This document shows positions 9,151-51,100 of a DNA stretch of 64,000 bases, piece after piece. Positions within the stretch are counted from its first letter, which is position 1; every line of letters starts with the position of its first letter. Source of the stretch: Paraspadella gotoi (taxonomy: Eukaryota; Animalia; Chaetognatha); assembly GCA_051294375.1 (NCBI GenBank), contig CM119265.1, positions 8,998,772 through 9,062,771 on the forward strand. The letters run 5' to 3'. The notes under the pieces were generated by a model. The model ran no database searches. It was not told the DNA's origin and worked only from the letters and a program-made list of their open reading frames with translations. A program made the translations under genes and the position numbers.

Positions 9151-12100
9151 CTCTATCTTCTCTCGGTGATTGATAGAAAAAGCAAAATGTAAAAGCCGAT
9201 TGAAAAATTTTCGCAAGGAAAATATTAAAATATCATATATACGAATGCAGGAAAAATTGGCAAACAAAAGTGGTAGGCCCCAAGCGCGCTGCGACTNNNN
9301 NNNNNNAAGCAGCGAAACCAAGAAAAAAAAAACAGTCAATCGGGAAATAGTTTTAAAAATCCGTTTTCTCGGACAGGATTTTCTTACAGATCGAAATTTT
9401 GGTATCCAGAGATACGGTTATTAAAAAAAAAATGTCTAAAAAGCCAAAAGGAAACGGAAATGCTTTGGATTTCCGAAAAAAAAAAACTCTTCTTAACTTA
9501 CCGCCTTAAAACCACATAAGTGGTCATCGATGAAAAAATGTAAGGTAAAAATGAACTGCGAATTCCAGCGTAAGATGATAAGACACTATTCATGAGTCTG
9601 ATGATGTAATAAAACCGTTTACATTTTTTAAAAGATTTATTTTGAGAAGCTTTGAAAGTAAAGGTAAATACAGTCCTGTGTAAAAAAAAGGCCACCCTAA
9701 AACATTGCATAAATAAATTATATTTAATTCATTTATTATAAAATATATTATAAGTTAATAATATTTATAAAAAAACTATTTGTACAAATTTTATAAAAAT
9801 TTGGCTATCTATTTGCAAGTAATAATTTTTTTCAAAATAACTACTCAAACAGACCTATAAAACAGAAAAAAATTGATAGATTTTTAACCTTATGTGTTTA
9901 AGGTACCATAGCACTTTTGACTTATATGTATAAATTCTACTTATAAAAATCTATATTTACCATTTATCATTTAATATAATAAGAGTATAAAACGTACGTT
10001 ATTTAATACATACGAGTAGCCTTTTTTTTATGCACAGGAGTGTCGTGTTAACACAGGGTGTAGAACGAAATAGAAGATCGGTGAAGAAATGACGATAAAA
10101 TAAACCAAAAGGGATATTTTGGGATTGATAAGAAACTGACGAGAGGAGCCGATGGGAGAATATATTTATGGTAATAATACATACTGAGGTGAAAAAAATA
10201 AACATGAAAAAAGATGTTCTATGTACTAAAAATAATATATTTTTTTGCCTATTTCGATTTTACTCGAAAAGTTTCACCTTCTACTCCGTCTGCGTCGTCG
10301 GTAGAAACAACGACAACTAAATTAACCGTTAAACAGTTTTAAACAAAAACAAACAATGGTTAATTAGCGAAACGACGATTTGGTCGTCAAAAATGAAAGT
10401 ATACATAGGAAAAAAGAAAATATCGATTAGTTAATTTAGTTTTCTTTTAAAATTTGTTATTGTTATTGAACGAGCAACGGTCGTCCCTGGTTAATCAATA
10501 ATAATCACAACATTTGTTAGAACTTTAATTTATTTTAAACACATGTGGGCCTCATCCTACCGACTTACCCGCTTCTCCGGGCACGCCCTTCGGCCCTCGG
10601 TCACCGACGTTTCCTTGACTGCCTTCTTCGCCCCTCTGACCCGGTTGGCCCGGCAGGCCCGGGCCTCCCTTCGGCCCGAGCGGGCCGGGCTGTCCTCGAT
10701 CGCCCCTGGCCCCCGCATCGCCCTCAGCTCCGTTTTCACCCGGCAGTCCGGGCAGGCCACGGTCTCCGGCCTCGCCACGAGCGCCAGCGTCTCCGCGGTC
10801 GCCCGACTCGCCCTCACGACCGAAATCGCCCGATCGTCCCTTGGGACCGACGGGCCCGCGGGGTCCCTGTTCGCCCTGTTCGCCCTGATCACCCTGTTCC
10901 CCTTGCGGGCCTGGAGGGCAAACCTAAATAAAGAAAAGGAAGTTTGGAATGCGCCTTAAAAGTCGAGGTCCGTCATTGTTGTGCTGCCCTATCTGATGGC
11001 TAACCGAAATCATTTTTTACTTTGCCATGCTGCTAACTAATATCCGAACTTACCCTGCATTCCTGCGATCTCGGGCTTTGCGCCTGAATGTCGTTTCGGT
11101 TTTTGAGTTCCGAACACTTGTCTCGTTCGCCGCGAGTCGGGTTGCAGTGGAGCTCGAGCCATTGCAGGTCGAGGATCACCGTTTTCCTGCGCGATTGTTT
11201 AAGGTTAAATATTGTTCTCAACATTTGGTAATAAGCTTTCATTTTAATGTTTTAATGTTTTAAAATCTCTTACTTTATTATTAGTATTATCAAACCTGTC
11301 GTCGACGGCCTTTGCCATGGCGATCTTCCCGGAGATGTCAATGGTGCCCTGTAACGGAACCGTCTGAGTCTCGATGGCTTCGCAGTCGATGTAGAGAGTC
11401 ACCGACTCGGGTTTCACGGTGATGTGAATCTTGTGCCAGTCGCCGTCGAAGAGGCGGCTGGTTTGGCTCCTGGAGGATTGGATTTCGAGGAGAACATCGA
11501 TCATTCAATCAATGAATCAATCAATAAACCAATAATTAAATTATTAAATCAATCAATCAATCAATCTATCAATCAAATAACCTGAAATTAATTTCGGCCA
11601 ATCGACCGTCAAAATCTCTGTAGTAATAAGTGATGGAGTTGTCGGTGGCGCCGTTGACTTGAAGACCGAATTGAAGGGTGGGTTTCGGCGTTGTCGAGTC
11701 CTCGATCCGGAGAAGATGCCAGTCCGCTCCCTGAGGCGATGAGTGAATATCAAGGATTTATAATTTGTTTTTGAGGACGACACCGCCGGAACTCCCAGCT
11801 AGCAGTACGTCTCTACCTCCACGCGGTTCTATCGGGAACATCCTTTCGGATGGCAAAAGAGACGGGAGGCTCAAGCAAACAAGGAGAAGGAAAAGCCGAA
11901 AGGCGGAATCCCGATCTGTTTTCTTGGGAAACGGAGTGGGCCAGGCCAAGCCGATCTGGTCAGTGGTCACCTCCCCCCTCTTCCTTCCCTTCCCAAATCC
12001 CCTGCCCCCTTCCCCCTCTCTCCCTATTTTCCACTATCTTTCCCCACCCTTTTTTAAAAAACAGTCTGGCTGCAGCCTCTGAAGACACTGTTGTCTGCTA

Positions 12101-13027
12101 CAGCTTTGAGAGTGAGGTTGTCCCTTTTTGGACGAATGCCTTTCAAGACGAGACAAGCCGGAACTCTCACCTGCGTGTCAGGATTCCTCATTCTGAAAGT
12201 CGCTTCCAACGAAAACATGTCGGGCAAACCTTTCGGAAACAAAATGGACGTCGGGATCGTCAGATCCGCTCGTCGCCCGATCCTGGTTGAAAGGAGTTAC
12301 TCGTTTTATTGTAAAATTCGAAAATAATTGTATTTAGTGTGAATTTGTAATTTATTGTCTTTTGTCGTTTAATAAGCTGAGAGAGTTTGAGGTTAGATAA
12401 ACAACGATTTTATTTAAAAACAGTGGACATGTTTCGACCTTTTTGCAAGTCGTCTTCAGCACTTAAACAATTAACACTTAAACAATTTTCCAATTACCTA
12501 ATTTTTTTTACATTTCTCGATTTTGTTATATTTATTTATCTACTCTATCTACCTCAATTATCAGTAATAGAAAGCGATATAAAATATTTTTTTTAATCGC
12601 CAAAGAAGATTAAAACTAAGCTTCAACCTGTAAGCCGTTTGCAACCGGTTCGTTCCAGATATTTTCCGGATGCCCGTCACCGAAACTGTCTCCCCGTTGA
12701 GTCCGAGTCGAGAGAAAAAGTCGAAGGCGGGTAGATCGTCATCGCCCTGCGATTCCGTCGGGCAGACGCCCTCCTCGGCGAATTGACCGGAAGTGGGCGT
12801 GGAGGAAATGAGGAGGAGCAGGGCGAGGAGGGGGAAGAGAGAACGAAGGAAGCTGCGGGGGAAGAAGTTAGGCGAAGATTTTTTTTGGTTTTAATTATAT
12901 TAGGTCGTTTGATACGTATTTATTTAAAAAAATATTCACTGAAGACTTTAGAACGAGTTTTTGACATTTTTCTCATATAAAAGCATTCACTTTTCAATAT
13001 TAATTACCTTTTGAAGAAAGCTCCCAT
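6707..13027 (-). CDS. FACIT collagen, collagen IX alpha1-like (signal peptide, TSPN/NC4 domain, interrupted Gly-X-Y helix)
   Basis: Approximate exons 13027-13008, 12852-12628, 12282-12171, 11730-11582, 11469-11296, 11186-11055, 10923-10570, 8962-8714, 8646-8557, 8429-8114, 7851-6707. N-terminus [21 protein letters not shown].. then [65 protein letters not shown] parallel COL9A1 NC4. NC2-like [16 protein letters not shown]. Ends [14 protein letters not shown]. Confidence 0.9.
11798..11864 (+). ncRNA. HDV-like (delta/CPEB3-type) self-cleaving ribozyme fold, P1 imperfect
   Basis: P1 5' GCTAGCA 11798-11804; P2 CGTCTCT 11808-11814 / AGAGACG 11858-11864; P3 ACC 11815-11817 / GGT 11825-11827; L3 TCCACGC; P1 3' TCTATC 11828-11833; GG for P1.1; P4 CATCC-TTTC-GGATG; J4/2 GCAAA with C11854 at the catalytic position. 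Confidence 0.75.
11798..12146 (+). mobile_element. Short non-autonomous ribozyme-headed retroposon candidate in collagen intron 3
   Basis: Flanked by imperfect direct repeat GACGACACCGCCGGAACTCCCA (11776-11797) and GACGAGACAAGCCGGAACTCTCA (12147-12169). 5' end coincides with ribozyme G1. Removing the element plus one repeat leaves a 69-nt intron, typical for this window. Confidence 0.6.
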
Positions 13028-19590: not shown

Positions 19591-22500
19591 TCAGTCGCTC
19601 TCCTCCTCGTCGGTCGTGAAGTCCGAGACGTCGGAGTTCTCTTCGTCGCCTTGCGTCTCTTCGTCCAACATTTCCCACTGAGGATGAGACTCGATTTTCT
19701 GACGAGAGAAAGATAAAAAGGGGGGGGGGAAAGGAGAAAAGTATAGATTATTAGAGGAGAATAGAGGAGAGGAAAATAGAGAGGAGAGGAGATACAGAGA
19801 AAGAGATGAAAAGAAGTAGGGATTGTGATTATTAAAAACAATTTGGAATCTACCAAAATTTTGCCGCCCACCTTGGCTTGTTTAACGTCGAGTCGAACTG
19901 ATTTTTGTTGATCGAAACCCACGTAGCAGTCGGACTTTAGGAATACCGAGTAAGTGTAAATACCTAGGGAAAAAGTTAAAAAAGACGCTGCACCATTGGA
20001 AAAACAGTTTTGGGATCCGACTATACAACATTTACCTGGCTTTTCGGGCGCGGGAAATTTTAATTCAAAATCTTCTTCGCTCTCAAGGGAGGTGACGTAA
20101 TACGGAGCTGATATGAGTGACTGAGGCAGATAGGGAGAGAGAGGCACGAGAAACAGAACAATGGGGAACGAATGAAAAAAAAATAATTGAAATGGGGGCA
20201 TTTTTAACCGTCCCTACCTGCCGTTTCGTATCCGCAATATAGCACCACCAAGCTTCTTGTTTCTTGGCCGGGAAATACGGACAGTAAACGATATGAGACT
20301 TTCGAGTTTTTGTTTCTAAACTCTGGACTCGCTCCTGTGAGTTCAAGGATTAAAAAAAAAAATGGCTACAAATAAATTAATGATAAAAAGAGAAACTTTC
20401 CCTCACCTTTTGGCTCTCCTGTTGAAACTGCTCCCAATCGTCTTCATCCTGGGACTCGTCGGCTTCTTCGTCATCATCCTTCCGCACACGATCATCCTCT
20501 TCCTCGGAATTGTCCACGTCGCTCTCCGCGTCGCTGCGTCCGTTCCGAACGTCCGAATCCTCGTCGTCATCGTCGTCGTGAGTCCGTCTCGAACGTCCGC
20601 CGGCGACGCCGTTGGCGACGGGGGCCTCGGCTTCCGAGGCTGCAAAATGGATTTTTCTTGTCAAAAAACATTAATTTGGTCTCCTTCGACTCCTCAAATC
20701 TACATATTTCCTCACCATTTTGTTTCCCGACCGTCTCCGGCGCTGGTCTTTTACGCGGTACTACCCGGAGTTGCTGCTGCTGCGGTTTCTTCTTCGGTTT
20801 TGACTTTTGCTTCCCTTTGCTCTTCCAGACAGGCGCTTTCTTCTTGGGGCTTTTCTTGCCCTCCTCGTCCTCCTCCTCCCCTTCATCGGCCTCGCCGTCC
20901 TCGGCGCCCTCTCTAGGACCGTCCCCGCCTCCTCCGTTGTTGAGAGAGACGAGGGCGCCGTTACTTAGTCCGAGGTTTAGCGCCTTGTGCATCGGCTGGC
21001 GCTTGAGTTCCACGCGGACGGTGACGATGGCGCCGGCGGTGATGCTTTTGTCCTCGTCGTCCATGACTTCGACTGAGGGAAAGAAATAGAAAATGAATTT
21101 GACGATTTGCCTTCTAACTTTTCAAACTCGACCCGGCCTGATCTCGCTCACCGATGACGTTCATATTGATGTGTGGATAATTCCCAGCAACTGTGAGAAC
21201 GTCTTGGTACTGCATGTCTGTTAGATTTCGCAAAAGGTTTCGCCTGTCGACTTCTTTCATTTCGAGGAACTGTTCCACAGTCCGAATGTTGCGCTTCCTC
21301 GAGCAAAAATGTCTAAAGAAAGCGATCGAAAAATGAAATGCTCCGAATAATAAAAATTATCNNNNNNNNNNAATAATAAAAATTCTCCATTCATTTAATA
21401 AATAAGCTCTCTTGCCCATGACTTTGGACAGGCTTTGGTGGTTTAAGGCCTCCATCAAGATAATACATGATAATAACATAGCAGGTCCCTGCAAGCTTTC
21501 AACCAAGACCGATTCTTACCTTAAAATATCCTCCTCAATGTAGGGAAGTTGCAACAAAGGATTCTTCCCTTCCCCAATGCCTTGTATTAACAATTGACTA
21601 AGCTTCATGCAGTGTTCGACGGTGTTTAATCGAGGCGCCATATTTGGTCGATCTGGAGCAAAAATCATGAGGGGCAACGTGGGAGCGATAATGATATCGA
21701 TTTCATCTTCTTTGGTAAATATTAAAAAACGTACCCGAATGGCGCATGGCAACGATGGTAGAGACGCAACAACTGATCATCTCTCGAATGAGAGCTGGCG
21801 ACTTCTTCAGAATGTAGTCGCGATCTTTCCCCAGCGTAGAAGGGTTTAGCTCGGTTCTGGAGAGGGCGGCGTGTATCAATGCGCGGGCTTTGATGCTGTA
21901 GGGATGCGAAAGAACGCCCTCTCGACTTTTCTCTCCTTGAGAATGTCATGACAAAAATTGGAAAATTGGGTAAAATGAGAAAGGGCAAAGTCGAATAATG
22001 TACCTAGATTAGGCAACTCCTTCATGAGCTGCGGGACTTCGTAGTCGTCAGACGGGCGGACTTCGATCTCGGGGTTGTGAAATTTCCAGAACTCAAAGGA
22101 GGCGGCCAGAATCATCATGGCACGCCGCATGACCATGTTGGGAGTCTTGTGAAAAAAGTAAAAGTACAGCTGCGTCGTGTCGAGGAGGATTTTGTCGCCA
22201 GTATAACGGATGGAGCGATACCACCAGATCCCGACCACTAGCGGAAGGATGACCATAAAGGCGAGAGCGTAGGCGGCGAGTACGAACTTAGAGTACTGTT
22301 CGCTCACGATCCAGGCAGGGAAGGCGATGCCAAACATCATGGCTCCAGGACCATCCGGGTTCCCGTACTCTTCCCAATTTTTGCGAGCCACGGGGTCGGT
22401 GAGAGCGTCCGAGGCTTTGGTGATTTTCATAAACATTTCCTCGGAGCCGCCCTGATCAGGATGATGGATCTTGGACAACTCGCGAAACTTCTTTTTGATG

Positions 22501-22862
22501 TCCTTTTCGGAGGCCCCGGGCGAGAGGCCGAGAATGTCGTAGGGGTTGTACTCGACGTGGTCTCTCTCGATCTGGCTGACTTTATAGGCGAGAAAGACGA
22601 GAATGACCCAGAGGACGACGATGACGAGTTTGACGAGGCGCTTCTTGGCCCGATCGATGGGTCGCCCCGCGCGCAGCTTCTCCATCTTCTGTCGGCAAGG
22701 TTCGAAGATGGAGAGTTCCTCCACGTCCTGGTGCTTATCGTTCTCCTCCTCCTTCGGCCACAGGTAGAAGGTGAGGGGGAGAAGGATGAGGGCGAAGAAA
22801 GAAAAGATGAAGTAGAAAAATGTGTTGCCGCTTTCGTCGTATTCGAATTTCGCACCCGCCAT
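19591..22862 (-). CDS. SEC63: Translocation protein SEC63 (TM segments, J-domain, Sec63 domain, acidic tail)
   Basis: MAGAKFEYDESGNTFFYF.., YNPYDILG..HHPD.., NWEEYGNPDGPG, PYSIKARALI, ITAGAIVTVRVEL, PYFPAKKQEAWW, acidic end HPQWEMLDEE..EEESD* (stop 19591-19593). Confidence 0.96.
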
Positions 22863-23572
22863 CTTCGGGATCGATCTCGTTCAAACGGCGAAAGTTTTGA
22901 TTGTTTATGTTAACAACGGAAAAGTATTCATACCGTGAAAACCAACGAAAAATTTACGGTCCTTAAAGTTGTAGTTGGAGGATGGAGTGCGGTTCAATTA
23001 TTAATCGAATGCTATTATCGGCATTTTTTTAATACATTTTACAAAGAAAGAAAGTACACCTGACGCGTTTAGACTCGTCACAGACTCAAAATCGGCTATA
23101 AAAACGAAACCAACGGAAACCCAATCCCGCTCCGCGCTCGAAACAAGTTACATAGGTTATTTACGAAATAAAAAAAATGATTCGCGCAAAAGTATTAAGA
23201 TAACAAAACAAAACAAAAAAACAAATATTTGTCATCGGTTTTTAGAAGCGAAGAAAAAACGCTATTCAACAGTTTTTTGTGTTTTTGTCTGACGTAAAAT
23301 AAATTAGAGTCACTCAATCAGATAAAAAAAATTCGTTAAACATGGAGAATAAACTATATACATTTTACAAATTAAACAATTGACTAAGCTAGCGACTTAG
23401 TGCGATGACTGGTTATCTTCGTGGCAAACGCAAGGCAACTCGTTTTGAGATCCACGTCTGAGTTTCAAACAATTGTCATCCTAAAAAAATAGCCAGACAA
23501 GTCTTCCGAAAGGGCGGGAACCGCCGGCTTTTTAAAGTTGTAAATCGTCCGCCCCAAATTCCTTTCGGAGTT

Positions 23573-25248
23573 TTAACCAAAGGAGAAGGAGAAATGCTGA
23601 CCGCTGTGGCTGTGGCCGCCCGGCCCGCCGAACTGAAAGGAAAAGCCGCCTGGCCCGCCGGGCCCTCCCGGCCCGCCGCCGCCACCACCGAAGAACGCCT
23701 GGAAAATCTGATTGGGGTCGACATCAAAGTCGGGATGGCCGCCGTCGTCGTCGAGGTCGTGGCCGGCGTCATATCGCATCCTCTTGCTCTTGTCCGAAAG
23801 GACAGAGTACGCCTCGTTCACTTCTTTAAACTTTCGCTCCTCCTCCTTCCGCTCGGCCTCTTCCGCCGTCGTGTGTCGGTCGGGGTGATGAACCAAAGCG
23901 CGCTTCCTGAAAGAATATGGATAGGGGCGTTGTATTGAAAACGTTCTTTTTCGTATGAACTGATCGTGTTGTTATAAAAATTGAGCAGAGCGGCGACATC
24001 AACAATTGCAGCATTCAAAAAAGTTTTTAACCAATTTAATAACCTGTAACCCTTCTTGATCTCATCTTCAGTAGCGTCTTTCGAGACTCCCAATATTTTG
24101 TAGTAATCCTTGCGTTTGCTTTTTTTTAGTTCTATCTTGGCGTCTCGCAGGTTGGCCTTGTATTCTCTATTGCCGCGGTCCATCTGGCAGAGTTTCTCGA
24201 AATCTCTTACTGCTTCCTCGTGCTTGTCCAGCTCTTGAAATGTCTTGGCTCGCCGCAAATAAGCTTTCTGGTAGTTTTCGTCCAACTCGATCGCTTTGGT
24301 GCAGTCGTCGGCCGATTCCTCGAGTTTCTTCAGCTTCGACAACACCATCGCGCGGTTGTTGTAAAGTTTAGCGTTGGTCGGTTTGTTGTGGGGGTCGATT
24401 TCGAGGGCCTCAGTGTAGATTTGTCGAGCTATTTCCCATTGTCCGGCTTTGAAGGCGGCGTTGCCCTCCTCCTTTTTCGTTTGAAGACGTTTGGCGCGGC
24501 GGAAACAGTCGCGCGCCTTGGGATGATCGGGCGCCAGTCGCAGCACCTGCTGAAAGTGTTGGTAAGCCTTTTCCAGGTTGTCGGCGTAGTAGAGGCAGAG
24601 CCCGCGGACGAAGAGGGCGTCGCAGTTCATGGTGTCGGACTGGAGAATCTCGTTCGCGGATTCCTGTGCCTCTTGAAAGCGACCGATCATAGCCAGCGCC
24701 TCCGCCTTGAGCAATTTGTACCTCGCGCATTTGTGAGCGAACTCTAGAGCACGGTCCATTGAATAGACGACTCGGCGAAAATCCTTCTTGGCGTATTCCG
24801 TCTCGGCGCTCTGTTCGTAGACGAGGACAGCTTGAGCTTGCTTACATTCGTTCTCGGCCGTGCCATTGGCATTATCGAGCTGAAGCGCCATTTGGTAAGA
24901 CCGAATGGCGCTTTTGGGATCGCCTAGCACCAGGTGACACTTGCCCTCCCTAATGTGGCCCTTTAGATACTCGGGATCTCGTTTGACGCACTCGCGAGCG
25001 TCTTTCAGGGCCTCTCGCCATTTGTTAGTCATCATGAAAACGGCAGCTCGGTTACAATAATAGGCGGCGCAGTCGGGACAGGCTTTGATCGCCTCGTCGT
25101 AGCATTTGAGAGCGAGGGTGTATTGCTTCTTTAAATAATAATCGTTGCCTTCCACTTTCTTCGCTTCGGCTAATCGCATCGGCGAATCCCCCGACGATTC
25201 GTCGAAGTCCATCGGCACACCGTTTGTGTAAAAGTGTGAGTCTACCAT
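23573..25248 (-). CDS. DNAJC7: DnaJ homolog subfamily C member 7 (TPR repeats plus C-terminal J-domain)
   Basis: Two coding exons (25248-24044 and ~23906-23573). Multiple TPRs, [42 protein letters not shown]-rich tail FSFSFG*. Confidence 0.96.
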
Positions 25249-25757
25249 GTTTTATATAGTCACGCGAAATTTGATTCTGCGTGCTCAAGGAGTGTTTCTT
25301 GAATCAGGTGTTCTCTTCTTTCCTGCTAAAAAAAATGAGTGAAACGACGTGGAAATAAAATGAGCAACGAAAAACTAATGACGAAATTGGCCACGTACAC
25401 CAAAAACGGATCAAATATATACAGGAAAGCATTGCGACAACAAGTACCTCATACCCATACAATGTCACATCTATTAAAAAAGGAAATAACGCTAATTAAA
25501 AAAAGTACGTGGCATCCATGATTCTGTGTTTTGACTTAAGGCGACAGTCAAGCTGTTCCTTTGTTGAAATCCGTGGATAAGAAAAATCTAGAATGTTTAG
25601 AGGACATGACTAATTTTTGAGTTTAATTAATTTAATTGTTCAGTAGCTCGTAATTACTAGTGTACTTAACTAATTCGATTACAATAGCAGCATAAATTTG
25701 AGAAGGAAGTAATATATTTTTTCTTGGAAATCTCAACTGGTTCTCCCTTCGCTGTCG

Positions 25758-25770
25758 GTTGCTAGGGAAC
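25758..25770. promoter_or_regulatory. RFX X-box in the DNAJC7/DNAJB13 divergent promoter
   Basis: GTTGCTAGGGAAC (reverse complement GTTCCCTAGCAAC) ~155 bp upstream of the ATG of the ciliary gene DNAJB13. A second partial site (GTCCTTAACAAC) follows immediately. Confidence 0.6.
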
Positions 25771-25924
25771 GGCGTCCTTAACAACCGTGTTTTGTACAGT
25801 TTTTTGAAAGAAGTTTGATCACTTTGATTTTTGTTATAAAAAAATATTTACGACATTGACTCGTTTGAAAAGATAGATTTAATTAAAAATTCATATTTAG
25901 ATTTACTTTTAGAAATCAACAATC

Positions 25925-28345
25925 ATGGATTATTACGGGACATTATGTTTGACAAGAAGCGCGGGCGATGCCGACATTAAAAAGGCCTACAGAAAGCTCG
26001 CTCTGAAATATCATCCAGAAAAAAACAATGAATCTGGGGCCTATGAAAGGTGGTGTTCAGCAATGAACCTAAATCTCGAATTTAATTTTTATTCTCATTG
26101 TTTTATATTCTTTATTACTGAAGGTTCACGCTTGTGGCAGAAGCTTACGACGTCCTTTCCGATCCCAAAAAACGTGCCGTGTACGATCAATACGGAGAAG
26201 AGGGTCTCAAGGTATTTTCGTCTTCTACACCTGTTAAAATTTATGAAACCGTCTGTAATCGAATCGATTTCTTTCTTTAAGGTAGGTGTCCCGATCAACG
26301 ACGATGGAGACTTTACCGAGGCCTATACGTTCCACGGAAACCCAGAGAAAGTCTTTCGAGAATTTTTCGGTGGAGACAACCCATTTGCGGAATTCTTCGA
26401 CAGGTTATTTTAGTTCTTTCTGTTCTATTACTTATAAAAAATGGGTCAATTAATCAAGTAAATGTAAATTGATTAACAGCATGCAATCCGAAATGAATCT
26501 GGGCTTCGGCGGAATCAAAGGAAGGGGACGCAAGAAGAAAGACACTGCCATTGAGCGAGACTTGATTCTTTCCCTGGAAGAGGTCAATATTCATTCACAA
26601 CAACTTACACAAAAGTGACAAACCTTTTAACGAGCAGATAAACTACATTTAAAGGTCTATCATGGTTGCACAAAGAAAATGAAAATTTCTCGTCGAGTCA
26701 TCAATGAAGACAATCACACTTCATCTATTCGTGACAAAATTTTGACGATCACCGTCAAGCGTGGTTGGCTTCCTGGAACAAGGATCACGTTTCCCGAAGA
26801 AGGCGATCAGGTCCAAAAACGAATTGATAACTCTAAACTTATTAAATTATAGTTTCCTCAAATACTTACTACGTCGTAACTAACCGTTTTATTACAAGAA
26901 CCGTTTGAGGAAAAACGTTTAAAAAACAGGAGATAACTCCTTTTTATCGATTATAATTACGGTCATTTATCCTAAAATTTTTGGAGCAAGCGGAGAAAAC
27001 CAATTATAATATCAGTTCATTATAATATGGTTGGCTGTGGTTTTTGTGCCCGGCGCAAAAGCGAAGTCACGGTTGCCCCGTTTCCCGTTTCGCGTGTTGG
27101 CACCGGTACGCGGTCGAAACCGGGGCTCCTCCACGTGAAGGTCCAACTCCTTCGTCGGCTCCCGCAAGATGCTTTTTTCCGGCTGGAGCTTCATGTTGCG
27201 AAAAGCTGGAGAGAGAAGTCCAAAGCCAAAGGGAGGGGGGCAAAAACACTTCCAAAGAAGAATTTAATTTGGGAGGACTTTCTCTCTTATCACCCTTCTC
27301 GTTCTGTTTGTCGTATTCCGTGAGTCGCGAAACGATTTCGACCTTCGTGCCGCTGACGTGCAATCCCCGCTCCTCGCAGATCTTTTTCAGCTCCAAGACC
27401 CTTTCAGGCCAATATTCTGAATCTAGAAAAAAGTATCTCATCTCTCGTTGTTTGTTGGTCGCTCAGGACTCAGGAGTCAAAGATTTCTCGAACGCACCGT
27501 GAAGGTCGTCTACTTCGAGACGTTTGACGAGTTCTTCCTTTTTGCCGGAGACAGGGAGCATTCTCTTTCTGCATTCCTCCTTCAGTTCGGGCAGCAGGCG
27601 TTCCTCGTAAGGCCGGTTTTCTTGCTTTTCGCTCACCCTTACGATCTTTTGTTTGCTCTTTTGCTCGCTCGCCATGACGTTATCCCTTTGGCGCTGGATT
27701 CCCCCCAATTGGTCGTCATCGTCCCCCCCTCTATTATTTGGCGCCATCCTCAGACATCGTTAAGTTCCGGGTAACGGTTTATGTAATGTTACATATCGAC
27801 GGTTAAACTTAAAAATATCAAATGCTAAAAATAATACGGAGATCGACGATACTAGTCACTTTTATAGCCTCATTTTTAAAAAAGTTTCCGTTTCCGTCGG
27901 GAAATTGTAGGGTCCTAACAACATCCCGGCCGACATCGTTTTCATCGTTAAAGACAAAAATCACCCCAAATTTCGCCGCGAGGGAACGAACCTCATCTTC
28001 ACCGCCAATGTCCCCTTAGGGAAGGCGCTCACCGGGTGCAGGTGAATACAAAATTTTTTCCACTATTCCCTTTATTTTCAAGTTTTCAACTTATAAACAA
28101 TCGTTCACAGCGTGGAGGTGCCCACCCTGGACGGCCGGTTGCTCAACATTCCCATCGTGGACATAATCCAGCCTGGCTATACCAAGGTGGTGCCAAACGA
28201 GGGCATGCCGATCGTCAGATCAGAACTGGAGACGGCCATGCGAGCCCCGGAAGAAATGGGCCAACTTATCATCGAGTTCAACATCATCTTTCCGAAAAAA
28301 CTCACGCCGGAGAAGAAAAACGTCATTCGAATGGCTTTGATGTAA
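25925..28345 (+). CDS. DNAJB13: DnaJ homolog subfamily B member 13 (radial-spoke HSP40)
   Basis: Exons 25925-26049, 26124-26211, 26282-26403, 26480-26582, ~26656-26810, 27911-28041, 28111-28345. [98 protein letters not shown]. Confidence 0.93.
27012..27747 (-). CDS. Nested three-exon gene encoding a ~190-aa protein with two SAP domains
   Basis: Exons 27747-27498, 27422-27294, 27205-27012; introns of 75 and 88 nt (GTGCGT..CTAG; GTGATA..CCAG), both phase 1, give one open frame of 573 nt. SAP motifs [27 protein letters not shown] and [27 protein letters not shown]. Confidence 0.8.
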
Positions 28346-42981: not shown

Positions 42982-44762
42982 GTTGGATATTATTGACCAT
43001 TATATTAATTACTATCATATTATGATACTATATTTCGCATCAAATTGAAAACCCGAAAAGTCATTCGTCCCCCAAAAAACTAAAGATGAGTATTTCGCAG
43101 AATTTAAAATTCTTCAAATATCAAAATATGATTTAGATAACTTTTTAAACTGATTTATAAAAATATTTTGATTTAATTAAGGCCGCTTCGGGCTCCCTTT
43201 CAAACACACGTGTAAAACGATGATTTGGTGCTACGACAAAAGTGGGTCGCTTTCGGATTCAAGGTGCTTTACTTCACTTCACTTGAGTGAAGTTGAGTAG
43301 TTTAGATGGAGAATAAACGGAAAGCAGAACAAACTGAAAATTCGAACTGGTCAAGCCGCATGTAGATCACACCTTAGTTCAATTAACTCAGAGCTATTTC
43401 CGCTTAGCGTCTCGCTTTATTTTGCTTTTCTCTGTTTTCTGTAACTATTACTGTAATCTCTGTTCCATGTTAAATTATTAATCGAAAACAGATTTTTTTA
43501 AATTTATTTAAGAATTAAGTGCGAGTTAACACAATCGAACAAGAAGTTAAAAAAGTATTGCGTCATATGGATAGAATTTCACTTATGTCAAATTTTAGCC
43601 TTTAAAACATTTAGTTAATTTTATTTGATATTTTCAAAACATACGTGCTTCAATGTCGACACACAATCTTGTAGTTTTGGTTTGCAAAGTAGTAAAGCAA
43701 AAGTCTGAATGGAAACGAGGTACAATGAAATATCATTTAAAAATCAAACGAAAGTAATCTGTCGATATAAAAACATTAAGGAAAATAAATCGTATTCATT
43801 CGTGCCAGAGTCTCAATAGACGTAACCGGTTCCAAAAAAAATATAGTATTTGTGTTTCGAAACCATAATATTCGAAAAAAAAACAAAACGCACAATGAAA
43901 AAAAAACAAAATATTGAGGGGGACAGAAAATGGAGTCAAACTACTTCTACTTAAAATTGAAAAAAAAAACCTTTATCGCGTGGAATGTATTTTATTATGT
44001 ACTACACGCTACTTTAAAGCCACTATCATAAAAAAAATATATAAAAACTAACTGAAATGAAAAAAAAATAAAGAGCGAACTTCTTCGGTATTAAAAGTGC
44101 GGTGAAGATTAATCAAAGATTTAATTCATGAGCGAAAAAAAATTAATCGCGCGAACAAAATAGCAACGGACGATGGCACTCACAGCTTAGTAGGGTCCAT
44201 TAAAAAACCCTTTCCAATTGGGTTGCTTTTTTGATTTTTTTTAGAGAGATAATATATATGCGAGCAAAATGTATAACACATTCATCGTAAAGAATATTAT
44301 ATAAATCTCTTAATAATATAATGCACGATTATTCAACGAAGAAGGGCGCTATGGCCTTGAACAGTAATAAGATGGTATTAATAATCGTAATAATTTCCGT
44401 TATATCACAAAGTACGAACAAAGTGGGAGGGAGAATGATTCTGCGAAACACTGTACGAAGAATAACTTTATAACAAGTTTACTTTTCTTTTTAAAGATGT
44501 TACATATAGAAGTATATTTAGTGTTAACTGATCGGAAGCGAATAACTTCACAGCTATTATGACTACTAATACGTTAGTAAAAGTAAATACATACGAAAAG
44601 AGGTAAAAAAGAAACTTTTTGAAGAGCTAGAGACGTTAGAACAGAAATTAAAAAAAATTGCAGAAACGTCTCCTCAAATTACGACTAGCGTATATAAATA
44701 TCGAAATTTGCAGTTAATATGAGATTGTCCGTCGATGAATGCCAATGAAAAAGAACCCATAA

Positions 44763-44808
44763 CTTAAGCTTAGACTTAAGCTTAGACTTAGACTTAAGCT
44801 TAGACTTA
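44763..44808. repeat. Short CTTAAG/CTTAGA hexamer array
   Basis: About eight mixed units CTTAAG/CTTAGA, also present in the duplicate copy near 50748-50802. Confidence 0.8.
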
Positions 44809-45104
44809 CGGAAGAAAAGAAAATTGCTCTCCCTAATAATGTCGACTCAGTTAAATTTGTTTATAATCCCGAAAAGAAAAGAACAACGCAATGAAATTTC
44901 AAAAAAGTTCGTAAATGATGCATGGAGATCACGTTTTCGTGCGGGATAGAATTTTAATAACCGAAAGACCCGAAAGTTCACCTTTAATTTTTTTTTTTTT
45001 TTACCGTTGAAATTCAACGAGTTGTATATTTATTTTTTGCTTTGGAAAAAAAAGAGCAGCACCTTTCATCCCGGTAACGAACCCACAAAACCCCCGAGCG
45101 CTTT

Positions 45105-48100
45105 TCACTCGAGATTGTCGTAGTCGAGCAGCTCGAGGTAAGTCGTCGGCACCTTACCCGACTTGGACCCGCGTTTCGCCATCATCCAATCGGCGCCGAA
45201 TCCGGGGACGGAGTACACGTCGATGATCTGATTGGTTACGAAGTTGCGTTTAAAATGTATCAATGTTATAAAATAGTGGTTAATTTTAAATATAAGTTCA
45301 TTCATAAATAATATAGCAGAGTAGCTTGTGGTTCATTTCAATCAATCCCATTTACACCATCTAAATTTACAACTCTCTCATTCACATATTGTAGCAGTTT
45401 AGATTATTTCTTGTATCTTTTTATTCTATTTTCCTAAAAGTTTTATTTTACTATTTCAGGGATATTTATTAAGTTTTTACTTAAACCAACACATAACCAA
45501 TATACAGATGTGGTCAAAAAAAGTTTAAACTTTGAACCCCCTACTATCTCATTTGTTTGTCATCCTATTAATTAAAACTTGGGTTTATTTAAAAGTTAAC
45601 GTTGCTTTCTTTTTATACTTGATATTTTTTTGGTTTATAAAAAAATTGAATTTGAATGTTCTTGACTATTATATTGTATACTTTCTTATGAATTAGTTCA
45701 TAACATTTTATTCATGAGTTTATTTAAACGTTAATATCTTTTGTTTTTGTTAAATTATAATAGTTTAGTTTTTACTTGTTTACCGCTTTCTAATCTTTTA
45801 CACTGATACTGTTTCTGATTTTGTCAATACTGTTTTTGATATTAATAAAAAAAATTTTAAAAAAGATAAAAAACTTTAATTAAAGCCTATGGCGAGGTTT
45901 TTAGGCCAAATATTATAAAAGCTGTGCTAAATAATAAACGGATCTGAAATTCTGTTTAGACTTTTTTTTTTTGCGTAAAAAATTTTTTATCCATTTTTAT
46001 TTTTTGTGTTTTTTCACCATGGAAACTTCAAAACAGTTAAACCCTAAAAAGAAAGCTGCAATTATTAAGCTTTGGAAGGCGTGTTTGTCAAGATATAGGA
46101 TCGCAAAACAGTTGAATTTCTCTCCTACCACCATTTGCAGTTGTCAATAAATTTGAAACAACTGGAAACCTTGGACGAGCTGTTGAAAGTGGGCGACCTC
46201 GCAGGTCCTGGGAAACCTAGAACAATAACCTGGTAAATCACGAAATTCAAAAATGGAGGGCTCCTGCAAACCAGATGAAAAAAAATAAAGAAAGAGGAAT
46301 TGTAGCCAGTCGTTCACTATTGAAAGATGGCTTTTCATACTGAATTGAGCTACTGGAAATGAGGCCAAAGCTACCCACTCGCTTGACTGCATCATCATCG
46401 AAAACGTCTGGTCAAGGATAAAAAAGGATATTTCGCAGTACAACGCCACGACAGTCGACGAAATAAAAAAAATTGTAAAATGTATTTGGCGGGAGCTGAA
46501 CCCTTCGTATTTGCGCAGCCTCTACGACTCTCTCCCTCGTCGCATGGAAGCGGTGCTGGAAGCAAATGGTGGTCCGACAATGTATTAATTAACCGAGTCC
46601 TAAAAAATATTTTTCTTCGAATAGCAAAATAAAATGCTTTCGTCATAACTATTAAACTTTTTTTTTTGACCACATGTGTACAATATATTAAATGTCCCTC
46701 CCGCTATAATAAAATTATAAATTGATGAATCAATCGATCAATCGCCGCTGACCTCGTCGGCCTGGACGTTGAGCTCGGACTCATCGGCGGCGTCAAAGTC
46801 GTAGAGGACGCGCGCGCGTTTCACATCCTTTTTGGACGAGGAAGACGACGACGTCGGCCCGCGGGTCGGAGAGTCCAGGCTCGAGAACGCGTTCGACGCC
46901 AGGCCTTGAGGGAGGAGGCGGTGAGTTTAGGGTGAGGTTAAGAACGACACTTTAATTAAGCTATCAAAGTCAAAGCTCAAATGCAAAATTTGTAAAGTTT
47001 AGTTGGTTTTTTATGAAGCTCAAAATTAAAATCTCTACTTGTTTTGTTTGTTTGTTTTTTTTTTTTTACGCTGAAAAAAACTTTTTTCCTTTCTTATCAA
47101 AAATCTGATTTTGGATAAAAAAAAGTTCATTTTGAAAACAAAAAAAAATTTCATTGGGATATTACTGTGATAATTGTATTTGGTACAATGTGCAATTGTG
47201 CATCCGTTCCCCAAAGGCCTTACAATATGATTATCTGATAAATTTTTTTGATTTCCGAAAGCTTCATTCTATCATCCCATTCCATCCTATCTTAAACGCT
47301 CTCTCCTACCGAAACCGTTGCTTGAGATCAAGTCGTTCGTCGGGATGTTCGTCGTTCCGTTGGTCGTGCTGGCAAGAATAGGGTTCAGATTACTGCCGCC
47401 AGGGGTGTGCGGTCCCGAGGCTGGCGTCAGGCTGAAACAAAATATCAGCTTATTGATTTCAACGTAATTAATTTTTATTGAAAAAAAAATTTGATTTTTA
47501 ACTCTAATTACGTATACTTAAGTCGATTATCATTATTATAAATCCTTAATACTGCTGAATTGATAATGAATGAGAACGGTACCGATTAACTCACTTTCCC
47601 AACTGTCGCTGAAGGTCGAGCATGTACTGGTGGCACTGAGCGTGGAACTGGACTTGAGCCTCCACGAAGTCGTTTAGGCATCGCAAATGATGCGCCTGAG
47701 AGAGAGAGAGAGAGAGNNNNNNNNNNNNNNNNNNNNNNNNNNNNNNNNNNNNNNNNNNNNNNNNNNNNNNNNNNNNNNNNNNNNNNNNNNNNNNNNNNNN
47801 NNNNNNNNNNNNNNNNNNNNNNNNNNNNNNNNNNNNNNNNNNNNNNNNNNNNNNNNNNNNNNNNNNNNNNNNNNNNNNNNNNNNNNNNNNNNNNNNNNNN
47901 NNNNNNNNNNNNNNNNNNNNNNNNNNNNNNNNNNNNNNNNNNNNNNNNNNNNNNNNNNNNNNNNNNNNNNNNNNNNNNNNNNNNNNNAGAGAGAGAGAGA
48001 AAAAGTGATATAATTACACTGGAGAAAAATGGGGAGTGGAAAGGAGAGAGTAGATAGAAAAGGAGACAGGAGATAGAAAAGGAGAGAGNNNNNNNNNNNN

Positions 48101-51100
48101 NNNNNNNNNNNNNNNNNNNNNNNNNNNNNNNNNNNNNNNNNNNNNNNNNNNNNNNNNNNNNNNNNNNNNNNNNNNNNNNNNNNNNNNNNNNNNNNNNNNN
48201 NNNNNNNNNNNNNNNNNNNNNNNNNNNNNNNNNNNNNNNNNNNNNNNNNNNNNNNNNNNNNNNNNNNNNNNNNNNNNNNNNNNNNNNNNNNNNNNNNNNN
48301 NNNNNNNNNNNNNNNNGATAGAAAAGGAAGATAGAATTTGAAAATGTAGGAGATTATCGGGAGATTAATTAAAAACGAAATGTTTCGGTGTTTGGAAAAA
48401 TTTTTTTAAAAAAGTTTTTGAAAGGGAATCGGTGATGTAAACTTTGTAGTATACTTTTTTTAGGAAGAGAGACAGAGATAGAGAGAGAAAGAGGAAGAAA
48501 AGAAACAGAGCGTGCCACTGACTTTATGAGAGACTTTGCAAGTGCTATTGAATTTATACACATGCTTATTTTCGGTAGGCAAGCTGGTACTAAAACTTTT
48601 TCTCAAAAACTCATGGGGAACGTTCGTAGTTATTTCGATTCGGTTTTTGAAAAAAAACAAGATATAAACAATCGGAAAAAGTTTAAACATTTCGAGTACT
48701 ACACATTACTTATTTAGGTTTATGTAAGTTTAGGTTAGAATTACTAACAAACATGATAATGAGGAGAATTATTAGCACAACATCGAAATTTGAGCGATTT
48801 TGTCATTTTTTTGACTACTGCAATTAATTATTTAAAATCGCTGCACTTCAGTTAATTTTTTATGAAGAAGAAACCGTATTNNNNNNNNNNNNNNNNNNNN
48901 NNNNNGTGGATATTATTGACCATTATATTAATTACTATCATATTTATTGATACCTTATATTTCCCATCAAATTTGAAAACCCCGAAAAACTAAAGATGAG
49001 TATTTCGCAGAATTTAAAAATTCTTCAAATTATCAAAATATTGATTTAGATAAACTTTTTAAAACTGCATTTACTAAAATATTTTGATTTATTTTAGGTC
49101 GCTTCGGGCTTCCCTTTTCAAAACACACGTGTAAAACGATGATTTGGTTGCTACGACAACAAGTGGGTCGCTTTCGGATTCAAGGTGCTTTACTTTCACT
49201 TCACTTGAGTAAGTTGTAGTAGTTTTAGAATGTCAGCTGAATAAACGCGAAAGCAGAACAAAATTGAAAATTCGAACTGCGTCAAGCCGCATTGTAGATC
49301 ACACCTTAGTTCAATTAACTCCAGAGCTATTTCCGCTAGCGTCTCGCTTATTTTGCTTTTCTCTGTTTTCTGTACGATTACTGTTAATCTCTGCTTCCAT
49401 GTTAAAAATATTAATCGAAACAGATTTTTTATAATTTATTTTAAGAATTAAGCTGCGAGTTAACACAATCGAAAAGAAGTTTTAAAAAAGTATTGCGTCA
49501 TATGGATAGATTTACTTTATGTCAAATTAAGCCTTTAAACATTTATGTTAATTTTATTTTATATTTTTTCAAAACATACGTGCTTCAATGTCGACACACA
49601 ATCTTGTAGTTTTTGGTTTGCCAAGTAGTAAAGCAAAGCTCTGAATGGAAACGAGGTCACATATGAAATATCATTTAAAAATCAAACGAAAGTAATCTGT
49701 CGATATAAAAAACATTAAGGAAAATACAACGTATTCATTCGTGCCAGAGTCTCAATTAGACGTAACCGCGTTCCAAAAAAAATATAGTATTTGCTGTTTT
49801 CGAAACCATAATATTCGAAAAAAAAAAACAAAACGCACAATTGAAAAAAAAAAACAATAATTATAGGGGGACAGGGAAATGGAGTCAAAAACTACTTCTA
49901 CTTAAATTTGAAAAAAAAACCTTTATCGCGTGGAATGTATTTTATTATGTACTACACGCACTTTAAAGCCACTATCATAAAAAAATATATTAAAAACTAA
50001 CTGAAATGAAAAAATAAAGAGCGAAACTTCTCGGTAATTAAAGTGCGGTGAAGATTAATCAAAGAACTTAATTCAATTGGAGCGAAAAAAAAATAATCGC
50101 TCGCGTAACAAAATAGCAACGGACGATGGCGCACTCACAGCTTATAGGCGTCCATTAAAAAACCCTTTCCAATTTGGGTTGCTTTTTTGATTTTTTTAGA
50201 GAGATAATATATATGCGAGCAAAATGTATAACACATTCATCGTAAAGAATATTATATAAATCTTCTTAATTAATATAATGCACGCATTATTCAACGAAGA
50301 AGGGCGCTTATCGCCTCTGAACAGTAATAGATGGTATTTAATAATTCGTAATAATTTTTCCGCTTATATCACAAAGTACGAACATAGTGGGAGGGAGAAT
50401 GATTCTGCCCGAAACAACTGTACGAAGAATAACTTTATAAACAAAGTTTACTTTCTTTAAAGATGCTTACAGTATAGAAGTATATTTTTGTTGTTAACTG
50501 ATCGGAAGCGAATTACTTCACAGCTAATTATGACTACTTAATACGTTTAGTAAAGTAAATACATTACGAAAAGAGGTAAAAAGAAACTTTTTAAGAGCTA
50601 GAGACGTTAGAACATGAAATAAAAAAAATTGCAGGAAACGTCTCCTCAAATTTACGCACTAAGCCTCGGTATATAATATCGAAATTTGCAGTTAATATGC
50701 AGATTGTTCCGTCGATGAATGCCAATTGAAAAAGAACCCATACTTCAACTTAGACTTAGCGTAGACTTAAGGCTTAGACTTAGACTTAAGACTTAGACTT
50801 TACGGAAGAAAAGAAAATTTCTTCTCTCCTAATAATGTCGACTCAGTGAAATTTGTTTATAATCCCGAAAAGAAAAGAAACAACGCCCAATGAAATTTTC
50901 AAAAAAGTTCGTAAATGATGCATGGAGATCACGCTTTTCGTGCGGGATAGAATTTTAATTAACCTAAAGACCCGAAAGTTCACCTTAATTTTTTTTTTTT
51001 TTTTTATCCGTTGAAATTCAACGAGTTGTTATATTTATTTTTGCCTTTGCGGAAAAAAAAAGAGCAGCACCTTTCATCCCGATAACGAACCCACAAAACC

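What the first reader, a model, noticed from the sequence alone, without database searches (positions are those of the whole stretch)
11776..12169. HDV-like ribozyme heading a ~350-nt TSD-flanked element inside a collagen intron
Seen: 11798-11864 (+) has the nested double-pseudoknot order of HDV/CPEB3 ribozymes: perfect 7-bp P2, P3 ACC/GGT, L3 UCCACGC, GG for P1.1, P4 hairpin and J4/2 GCAAA. P1 is GCTAGCA/TCTATC, one deletion and one substitution from perfect. A 22-23 bp direct repeat (19/23 identical) ends exactly at the predicted scissile position A11797|G11798 and recurs at 12147-12169, where it overlaps the collagen splice donor. Excising the element restores a 69-nt intron. Established: HDV-like ribozymes process the 5' ends of R2, RTE and L1Tc retrotransposons and R2-derived SIDEs. 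Inference: this is a full-length non-coding retroposon whose 5' end was defined by self-cleavage rather than a Pol III promoter. An alternative is one monomer of a retrozyme-like tandem/circular RNA using a delta rather than a hammerhead ribozyme. It lies antisense to the collagen pre-mRNA, so it would not cut the host transcript.
Basis: partly seen in the sequence, partly recalled or inferred. Interest (0 to 1): 0.88.

Follow-up and report, generated by a model that had tools for sequence, protein, structure and literature searches.

The report
Ribozyme-headed jumping element in collagen intron
This is one decayed copy of a repeated 350-base DNA element whose copies begin exactly at the predicted cut site of a hepatitis-delta-type self-cleaving RNA fold; it is likely a non-coding hitch-hiker of a LINE retrotransposon, a new example of a known kind of element.

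Summary
11798-11864 (+) has the full HDV-like ribozyme order. It is the only hit of my descriptor in 64 kb; 0 of 60 shuffles give one with a 7-bp P2. Contigs from five DNA runs show a dispersed repeat family, order of 100 copies. Depth jumps from single-copy to about 80-90-fold at G11798. The 5' flanks differ between copies, the 3' ends run into (TCAAG)n, and no head-to-tail joint appeared. The flanking 22/23-nt repeat is single-copy, so it is a target-site duplication, not a terminal repeat. This copy's P1 is broken (-0.1 vs -8.2 kcal/mol), so it is likely dead. The 440-nt intron is spliced normally and the element is antisense to the collagen. Best reading: a bipartite, ORF-less LINE derivative (SIDE / RTE-N / NARTc type) released from read-through transcripts by self-cleavage and copied by a LINE, most likely RTE. 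Cleavage was not tested and no LINE partner was found. New member of a known kind; interest 0.3.

The parts
11798..12147 (+). Full-length copy of a dispersed non-coding repeat family (350 nt including the first tail unit)
   Evidence: Summed contig depth about 80-fold to 300-fold the flanks, boundaries at 11798 and 12147
11798..11864 (+). HDV-like ribozyme, antigenomic-type core (P3 ACC/GGT, 7-nt L3, putative catalytic C11854); P1 broken in this copy
   Evidence: Sequence, sub-threshold Rfam RF00094 and RF01787, descriptor against shuffles
11828..11833 (+). 3' strand of P1; two substitutions private to this copy (T at 11828 and 11832, where other copies have G)
   Evidence: table 3: G at 11828 in 8680/8805, 3362/3453 and 2047/2125 depth units; G at 11832 in 13930/14104, 2700/2768 and 2112/2125; duplex -0.1 vs -8.2 kcal/mol
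11882..11894 (+). 13-mer AGGAGAAGGAAAA, also the core of a conserved RTE 5'-UTR domain
   Evidence: One match in the window, 0.02 expected; 76 occurrences in the PMC5786205 supplement; motif chosen after the fact
11969..12055 (+). Pyrimidine-rich, indel-prone middle segment
   Evidence: Sequence; many variants, indels and joints among copies
12120..12133 (+). Small 3' hairpin (4-bp stem GTCC/GGAC) in the conserved 3' end, candidate LINE-recognition element
   Evidence: Sequence; high depth in bin 12099-12145; role inferred
12143..12147 (+). First unit of the (TCAAG)n tail
   Evidence: Loose ends behind 12147 and 12157 begin TCAAGTC in runs X2 and X7 (table 7)
11776..11797 (+). Left target-site duplication (best-matching core 11785-11797)
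   Evidence: Single-copy depth at 11780-11791 in 3 DNA runs and at 11783 in 3 DNA runs; alignment and chance
12147..12169 (+). Right target-site duplication; its first ten bases are a mosaic of target and tail; it holds the start of the intron next to the donor
   Evidence: alignment; its 3 proximal differences from the left copy all match the TCAAG tail
11764..11772 (+). T-stretch about 10 nt upstream of the left duplication, as described for RTE-type insertion sites
   Evidence: Sequence; PMC6007223 passages; one locus in an AT-rich intron, weak
11731..12170 (-). Host intron (440 nt) of a collagen gene with an N-terminal laminin-G-like domain
   Evidence: Spliced joint 11729 to 12170 in run X9; frame stays open; Pfam Collagen on two downstream exons and weak Laminin_G on one

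Best explanation
11798-12147 is one decayed copy of a dispersed, protein-less repeat family whose copies start at the predicted cut site of an HDV-like ribozyme and end in (TCAAG)n, and it is likely a bipartite non-autonomous LINE derivative, likely of the RTE clade. Shown: many copies, shared 5' end at G11798, locus-specific flanks, tail, target-site duplication, intact paired core in the family, broken P1 here, normal splicing of the host intron. Inferred: (1) intact copies are transcribed by read-through from host promoters; (2) the ribozyme cuts before G1 and frees an RNA with a defined 5' end; (3) an APE-type LINE protein binds the 3' end in trans, nicks DNA downstream of a T-stretch and primes reverse transcription, with the TCAAG tail pairing imperfectly to the target, which would explain the mosaic right duplication; (4) second-strand synthesis leaves a 13-23 bp duplication; (5) this copy landed antisense, just inside the intron donor, later lost two P1 pairs and is now inert.
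For: Depth is 73/20/14 at 11780-11791 and 5796/1824/1117 at 11798-11803 in X1/X5/X8. The excess in bin 11792-97 allows at most about 29%, 9% and 25% of copies to include A11797 (my arithmetic), near chance for one base. Loose ends before 11798: 4, 6 and 5 contigs, agreement 0.53, 0.49, 0.50. Loose ends behind 12147/12157 begin TCAAGTC: 7+4 contigs in X2, 5+3 in X7. No variant row falls in 11808-11827, the P4 stems or C11854; 9 of 67 ribozyme positions have a variant row against 21 of the next 65. Single contigs of 130 nt at depth 488 against about 10.5 (X7) and 78 nt at depth 500 against 14 (X8) point to a young, near-identical subfamily. P1 of 6 or 7 bp is typical of R2 ribozymes, and single P1 mismatches went with loss of cleavage (PMC3774820). 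Only RTE, Ingi, Vingi and R2 are reported to make such bipartite elements, which keep the LINE 5' end (PMC5786205). RTE hints: short-repeat tail, T-stretch near P-10, first duplicated base A (PMC6007223), and the 13-mer.
Against: No autonomous LINE sharing either end was seen: no genome is held and I recognised no RT or APE ORF in the window. Cleavage is untested and the Rfam scores are below threshold. Most probes for RTE likeness failed. In one search, 3 of 5 motifs had no hit in the PMC5786205 supplement and one hit was in unrelated context. In one search, 4 of 6 had no hit and one was in unrelated context. TCAAG tails were not found as an RTE feature in print (1 paper listed, not read). 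Short-repeat tails also occur on CR1 and L2 (recalled). Summed contig depth is not a copy number, and the same loci recur across runs, so the runs are not independent. Tables were cut (209 and 47 loose-end rows not shown). A minority of copies align only from 11801 or later. Compensatory change in P1 could not be seen, because letters near alignment ends are not listed. No empty-site allele appeared in 3 DNA runs, so the pre-insertion state is inferred.
Confidence: 0.75

Rival explanations
1. Composite ribozyme-headed SINE: the ribozyme head was captured from a source other than the LINE that supplies the tail, and stands in for a Pol III promoter (a dispersed analogue of the R2/R1 hybrid SIDE).
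For: No LINE with this 5' end was found; likeness to known RTE 5' UTRs is limited to short motifs; hybrids of this type exist (PMC3414825 abstract).
Against: The RTE-type 13-mer lies 18 nt after the ribozyme, as expected for one continuous 5' UTR. Internal deletion is the usual route (PMC5786205). No search here could have found the partner.
Confidence: 0.13
2. The 5' end is set by an internal Pol II promoter starting at +1 (Pr77-like); the ribozyme is a back-up, a relic or a protein-binding fold rather than the cutter in vivo.
For: In L1Tc and NARTc the same 77 nt are both promoter and ribozyme (PMC3383444 abstract start; PMC4035085 passages). Bipartite LINEs are thought to be Pol II transcribed (PMC5786205).
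Against: The family start coincides with G1 to the base and the core shows no variant rows. This reading is compatible with the best one and changes only steps 1 and 2.
Confidence: 0.07
3. Monomer of a retrozyme-like tandem or circular RNA that uses a delta ribozyme.
For: Size is within the 150-450 bp range of animal non-LTR retrozymes (PMC7229834).
Against: No head-to-tail joint in 4 runs (table 5); diverse flanks at both ends; a LINE-type tail; folding z-score +0.70 with 71 of 100 shuffles as stable. Contigs can drop rare junctions.
Confidence: 0.03
4. A domesticated intronic ribozyme that regulates the collagen gene, as proposed for CPEB3.
For: Intronic position next to a splice donor; present in all five DNA runs laid.
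Against: It is antisense to the pre-mRNA; P1 is broken only in this copy; the intron is spliced normally.
Confidence: 0.02

Closest known systems
Bipartite ORF-less non-autonomous LINEs of the RTE clade (RTE-N elements, RTESINE, WALLSI3, Bov-A; PMC5786205)
   Same: [quoted passage not shown]
   Different: Parent LINE not shown; TCAAG tail not among the RTE tails in the part of the PMC6007223 table I saw; likeness to listed RTE 5' UTRs is only motif-level.
R2 SIDEs and R2/R1 hybrid SIDEs of Drosophila (PMC3414825)
   Same: 5' HDV-like ribozyme joined to a LINE 3' end, no ORF, 5' end made from a co-transcript; 6-7 bp P1 as in R2 (PMC3774820).
   Different: SIDEs insert only in 28S rDNA; this family is dispersed with diverse flanks and has a microsatellite tail.
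NARTc, RIME and SIDER (Pr77 hallmark) of trypanosomatids (PMC4035085, PMC3383444)
   Same: Dispersed, non-coding, TSD-flanked retroposons whose first 70-80 nt fold as an HDV-like ribozyme.
   Different: Protist L1Tc/ingi clade with a shown internal promoter; here an animal genome, a TCAAG tail and no promoter test.
Rfam HDV_ribozyme RF00094 and drz-agam-1 RF01787
   Same: Same nested double-pseudoknot order, 3-bp P3, 7-nt L3 and C-x-A J4/2.
   Different: Scores below gathering; the family P1 is 6 bp and a self-complementary hexamer.
Animal non-LTR retrozymes (PMC7229834, PMC7761336)
   Same: Small, non-coding, ribozyme-bearing, no evident promoter.
   Different: They are tandem, use hammerheads, make circles and are strongly self-paired; none of these was found here.

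Membership tests
HDV-like ribozyme | Nested double pseudoknot P1, P1.1, P2, P3, P4 in order, with L3 and J4/2 core and catalytic C | tested here: met
   P1 intact in the family majority, broken in this copy
HDV-like ribozyme | Rfam gathering score | tested here: not met
   23 of 50 and 19.6 of 37 bits for this decayed copy; an intact copy could not be scanned
HDV-like ribozyme | Compensatory base changes across copies | tested here: inconclusive
   Variants avoid the stems of P2, P3 and P4, but the 5' P1 strand is not reported near alignment ends
HDV-like ribozyme | Mg2+- and C-dependent self-cleavage before G1 | not testable with these tools
   Needs a cleavage assay
Non-autonomous non-LTR retroposon | Many dispersed copies with shared ends and locus-specific flanks | tested here: met
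Non-autonomous non-LTR retroposon | Target-site duplication and 3' simple-repeat tail | tested here: met
   TSD at this locus only; tail in several copies
Non-autonomous non-LTR retroposon | No encoded protein | tested here: met
   The 171-aa stop-to-stop frame across it matches no Pfam family at E<=0.1; frequent indels among copies
Bipartite RTE derivative | 5' and 3' ends shared with an autonomous RTE LINE of the same genome | not testable with these tools
   No genome held; no partner recognised in the window
Bipartite RTE derivative | RTE-type 5'-UTR domain and insertion signature | tested here: inconclusive
   13-mer and T-stretch present; most other motif probes missed
Classical Pol III SINE | tRNA, 5S or 7SL head with A and B boxes | tested here: not met
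   No box pattern on either strand, no tRNA, no such Rfam match
R2 SIDE | Site-specific insertion in 28S rDNA | tested here: not met
   Collagen intron; diverse flanks
Non-LTR retrozyme | Tandem monomers and head-to-tail junctions | tested here: not met
   No such joint in 4 runs; contigs may drop rare forms
Non-LTR retrozyme | Accumulates as circular RNA | not testable with these tools
   Only contigs were available, no raw RNA reads

The most novel reading that the evidence does not exclude
A ribozyme-headed SINE family: an animal retroposon whose head is an independently captured delta ribozyme rather than a tRNA/5S/7SL gene or its LINE's own 5' end, recently amplified to hundreds of dispersed copies, with a palindromic 6-bp P1 that could let two copies swap strands and cut each other in trans.
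Probability: 0.13. Interest if true: 0.62.

Novelty: new member of a known kind. Interest (0 to 1): 0.3.

Why it matters
It is a clean animal example in which the 5' boundary of a dispersed, promoter-less retroposon family falls on the predicted ribozyme cut site to the base. PMC5786205 leaves open why only RTE, Ingi/Vingi and R2 make bipartite elements and suggests 5' ribozymes matter; a young family with live and dead copies could test whether cleavage is needed for spread. A 350-nt natural RNA with its own 5'-end maker also marks the minimal cis signals for a LINE enzyme, relevant to RTE- and Vingi-based gene writers (PMC13708176 passages). This particular copy probably does nothing.

Tried and rejected
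No whole genome is held, so copies came only from coded sequencing runs. No RNA holder was listed on record; this says nothing about expression. Run X9 is RNA by guess and its collagen contig lacks three introns. Only contigs were served, so RNA starts, strand and level could not be read. No second copy in the window. Pattern scans: viral contigs 0 hits; prokaryote genomes 0; metagenomes 4 hits, none with the family's downstream sequence. Start at A11797, the register of the drz-agam-1 alignment: rejected on depth and loose ends. 7-bp P1 by an insertion in other copies: not seen; a seventh pair A11804-T11827 could form only by taking T11827 from P3. Terminal-repeat reading of the 23-mer: rejected, the left copy is single-copy. 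Host taxon: a DnaJ-C7-like protein of the window has unnamed relatives at 75-77% and named molluscs, chordates and others at about 52-60%, so I can say only 'an animal with no close named relative in that search'. Motif scan for RT/APE peptides gave 10 scattered short matches, none recognisable as a LINE. Three look-ups of earlier findings returned nothing. A paper search on P1 length found 0 papers. Ruminski 2011 was not held; it and Webb 2009 are known to me only through papers citing them. Figure S4 of the PMC5786205 supplement is a picture and could not be read; it may bear on the RTE assignment. Repbase and Dfam could not be searched.
Full report
Observation. Rfam aligns two HDV-class models over the span, both under their gathering scores (23 of 50 bits, E 1.6; 19.6 of 37 bits, E 0.77; 2 of 4 matches). 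The 64-kb scan does not list them among its 11 matches. A structural descriptor, written after seeing the motif, finds this locus alone on both strands; 0 of 60 shuffled windows give a hit with a 7-bp P2 and 5 of 60 give one with 5 bp or more. The flanking repeat aligns at 19 of 23 columns with one gap; 1 of 11,992 random non-repetitive pairs at that spacing scores as well, or 11 of 19,589 with repeats kept.

Host context. The gene is a minus-strand collagen: Pfam Collagen on 2 of 6 peptides tested, weak Laminin_G on 1, nothing on 3. A contig of run X9 joins 11729 to 12170 across a 440-nt CT..AC gap and skips the two neighbouring introns too; the joined exons stay in frame. So the donor inside the right repeat is used and the element is antisense to the pre-mRNA. 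Removing element plus one repeat leaves 68-69 nt. The host is an animal with no close named relative in the protein search.

It is a repeat family. No genome is held, so I laid contigs of 6 of the 9 listed runs on the locus. In one search the summed depth in X1, X2 and X7 rises from 73, 23 and 10.5 upstream to 16,550, 4,066 and 2,471 over the ribozyme and 9,013, 2,359 and 1,880 over the 3' end. It is lower in the indel-rich middle and returns to 106, 15 and 11 in the next exon. In one search depth in X1, X5 and X8 is 73, 20 and 14 at 11780-11791 and 5,796, 1,824 and 1,117 at 11798-11803. The tool warns that this is no copy number; the ratios of about 80 to 300 suggest the order of 100 copies. 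Short contigs at 35-46 times single-copy depth (78 nt in X8; 130 nt in X7) indicate a young, near-identical subfamily.

The ends. The excess depth in bin 11792-97 allows at most about 29%, 9% and 25% of copies to include A11797 (my arithmetic), so the family starts at G11798, the predicted G1. Loose ends before 11798 come from 4, 6 and 5 contigs with agreement near 0.5, so flanks differ between loci. Two contigs each in X5, X8 and X9 start at 11797, and 2-3 per DNA run at 11801; 47 rows were not shown, and the same loci recur across runs. At the 3' end, loose ends behind 12147 or 12157 begin TCAAGTC in 7+4 contigs of X2 and 5+3 of X7 (209 rows not shown): a (TCAAG)n tail, of which this copy keeps one clear unit. 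The left repeat is single-copy, so it is a target-site duplication. The three differences in the first ten bases of the right copy all match the tail, while three other positions match the target. This looks like priming on a partly complementary site (inference); the alternative is a 13-nt duplication after a decayed tail. No head-to-tail joint and no empty-site joint appeared in table 5; contigs drop rare forms.

The ribozyme in the family. G replaces T at 11828 in 96-99% and at 11832 in 98-99% of depth in three DNA runs, and no insertion is listed in P1'. The family P1 is therefore a perfect 6-bp helix of a self-complementary hexamer, -8.2 kcal/mol against -0.1 for this copy. R2 ribozymes typically have 6- or 7-bp P1, and single P1 mismatches went with loss of cleavage (PMC3774820, passages and section 16). 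So the family is plausibly active and this copy plausibly dead; neither was assayed. No variant row falls in P2, P3, L3, the P4 stems or C11854; 9 of 67 ribozyme positions have a variant row against 21 of the next 65. Covariation in P1 could not be read, and seeding bias may inflate the contrast.

Mechanism. No Pol III box or tRNA was found. I commit to read-through transcription, self-cleavage before G1, and target-primed reverse transcription in trans by a LINE, most likely RTE (0.75 overall; about 0.6 for RTE given that). Hints for RTE: a short-repeat tail, a T-stretch about 10 nt before the duplication and A as first duplicated base (PMC6007223, abstract and passages), and a 13-mer at 11882-94 (0.02 expected per window) that occurs 76 times in the RTE 5'-UTR alignments of the PMC5786205 supplement. 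Against: the motif was picked after the fact in a purine-rich stretch, 7 of 11 further motif probes had no hit there, and no partner LINE was seen.

Comparison with what is known. PMC5786205 (main text parts 1-4 of 5; supplement searched, parts 6 and 15 read) states that RTE, Ingi, Vingi and R2 produce ORF-less bipartite elements that usually keep the LINE 5' end, and that six LINE clades carry 5' self-cleaving ribozymes. R2 SIDEs (PMC3414825, abstract) and NARTc, RIME and SIDER (PMC4035085, passages) are the tested examples. A review (PMC6765202, passages) notes genomes with hundreds of HDV-like ribozymes between conserved downstream and differing upstream sequence, and says some SINEs use them. 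Animal retrozymes are tandem, hammerhead-based and self-paired (PMC7229834 and PMC7761336, passages); this element folds no better than shuffles (z +0.70). I found no paper on this family in nine searches, but Repbase and Dfam were out of reach. It works like a SIDE or NARTc; membership in the RTE-derived group is unproven.

Verdict. Real feature, correctly read in outline, new member of a known kind; interest 0.3. The novel case, a composite ribozyme-headed SINE, is not excluded (0.13) and would deserve about 0.6.

Noticed in passing
window 12422-12463, minus strand: Minimal type-I hammerhead-like motif (CUGA core, 3-4 bp helix II, one- to two-pair helix III with palindromic ACAUGU, predicted cut after C12426) in the next intron (12283-12627), sense to the collagen pre-mRNA. 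The region is multi-copy in all three DNA runs, though the matches are short and AT-rich. It resembles the minimal hammerheads of Penelope-like elements (exact form recalled). No Rfam hit. That intron is spliced out in X9.
   Followed up: partly
run X9, record 27 (aligns to window 11806-11921): A 3,126-nt contig of depth 221 carries, 138 nt from one end, a degenerate copy that has lost much of P4 and J4/2; it is near single-copy depth in the DNA runs. Probably an old copy in a UTR, but its length is also that of an RTE LINE.
   Followed up: no
L002 and L004, around positions 1480-1540: Unrelated metagenome contigs hold compact HDV-like folds with the same P3/L3 core, a 7-bp P1 with G-U at the cut site, just after CCACCA; they look like tRNA-associated phage theta ribozymes (name recalled).
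   Followed up: no
window 42984-47716 and 48907-53842: A roughly 5-kb segment is present twice at 89% identity, with N gaps between: a tandem duplication or two haplotypes assembled in a row.
   Followed up: no
window 21876-26413: Three neighbouring J-domain genes: a Sec63-like frame (21876-22880, -), DnaJ-C7 (23818-25251, -) and a further DnaJ-like frame (25913-26413, +); the first and third are named from their translations only.
   Followed up: partly
window 11737 and 11783: C/T differences between runs: 11737 in X1, X2 and X7; 11783, inside the left duplication, in X2 and X7 but not X1.
   Followed up: no
PMC5786205 supplement, near part 3: An aligned sequence there (positions 2-74, apparently the Vingi-2_Gav 5' end by Table 2) looks closely like the mammalian CPEB3 ribozyme (CPEB3 sequence recalled), hinting at a retroposon origin for CPEB3-type ribozymes.
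   Followed up: no
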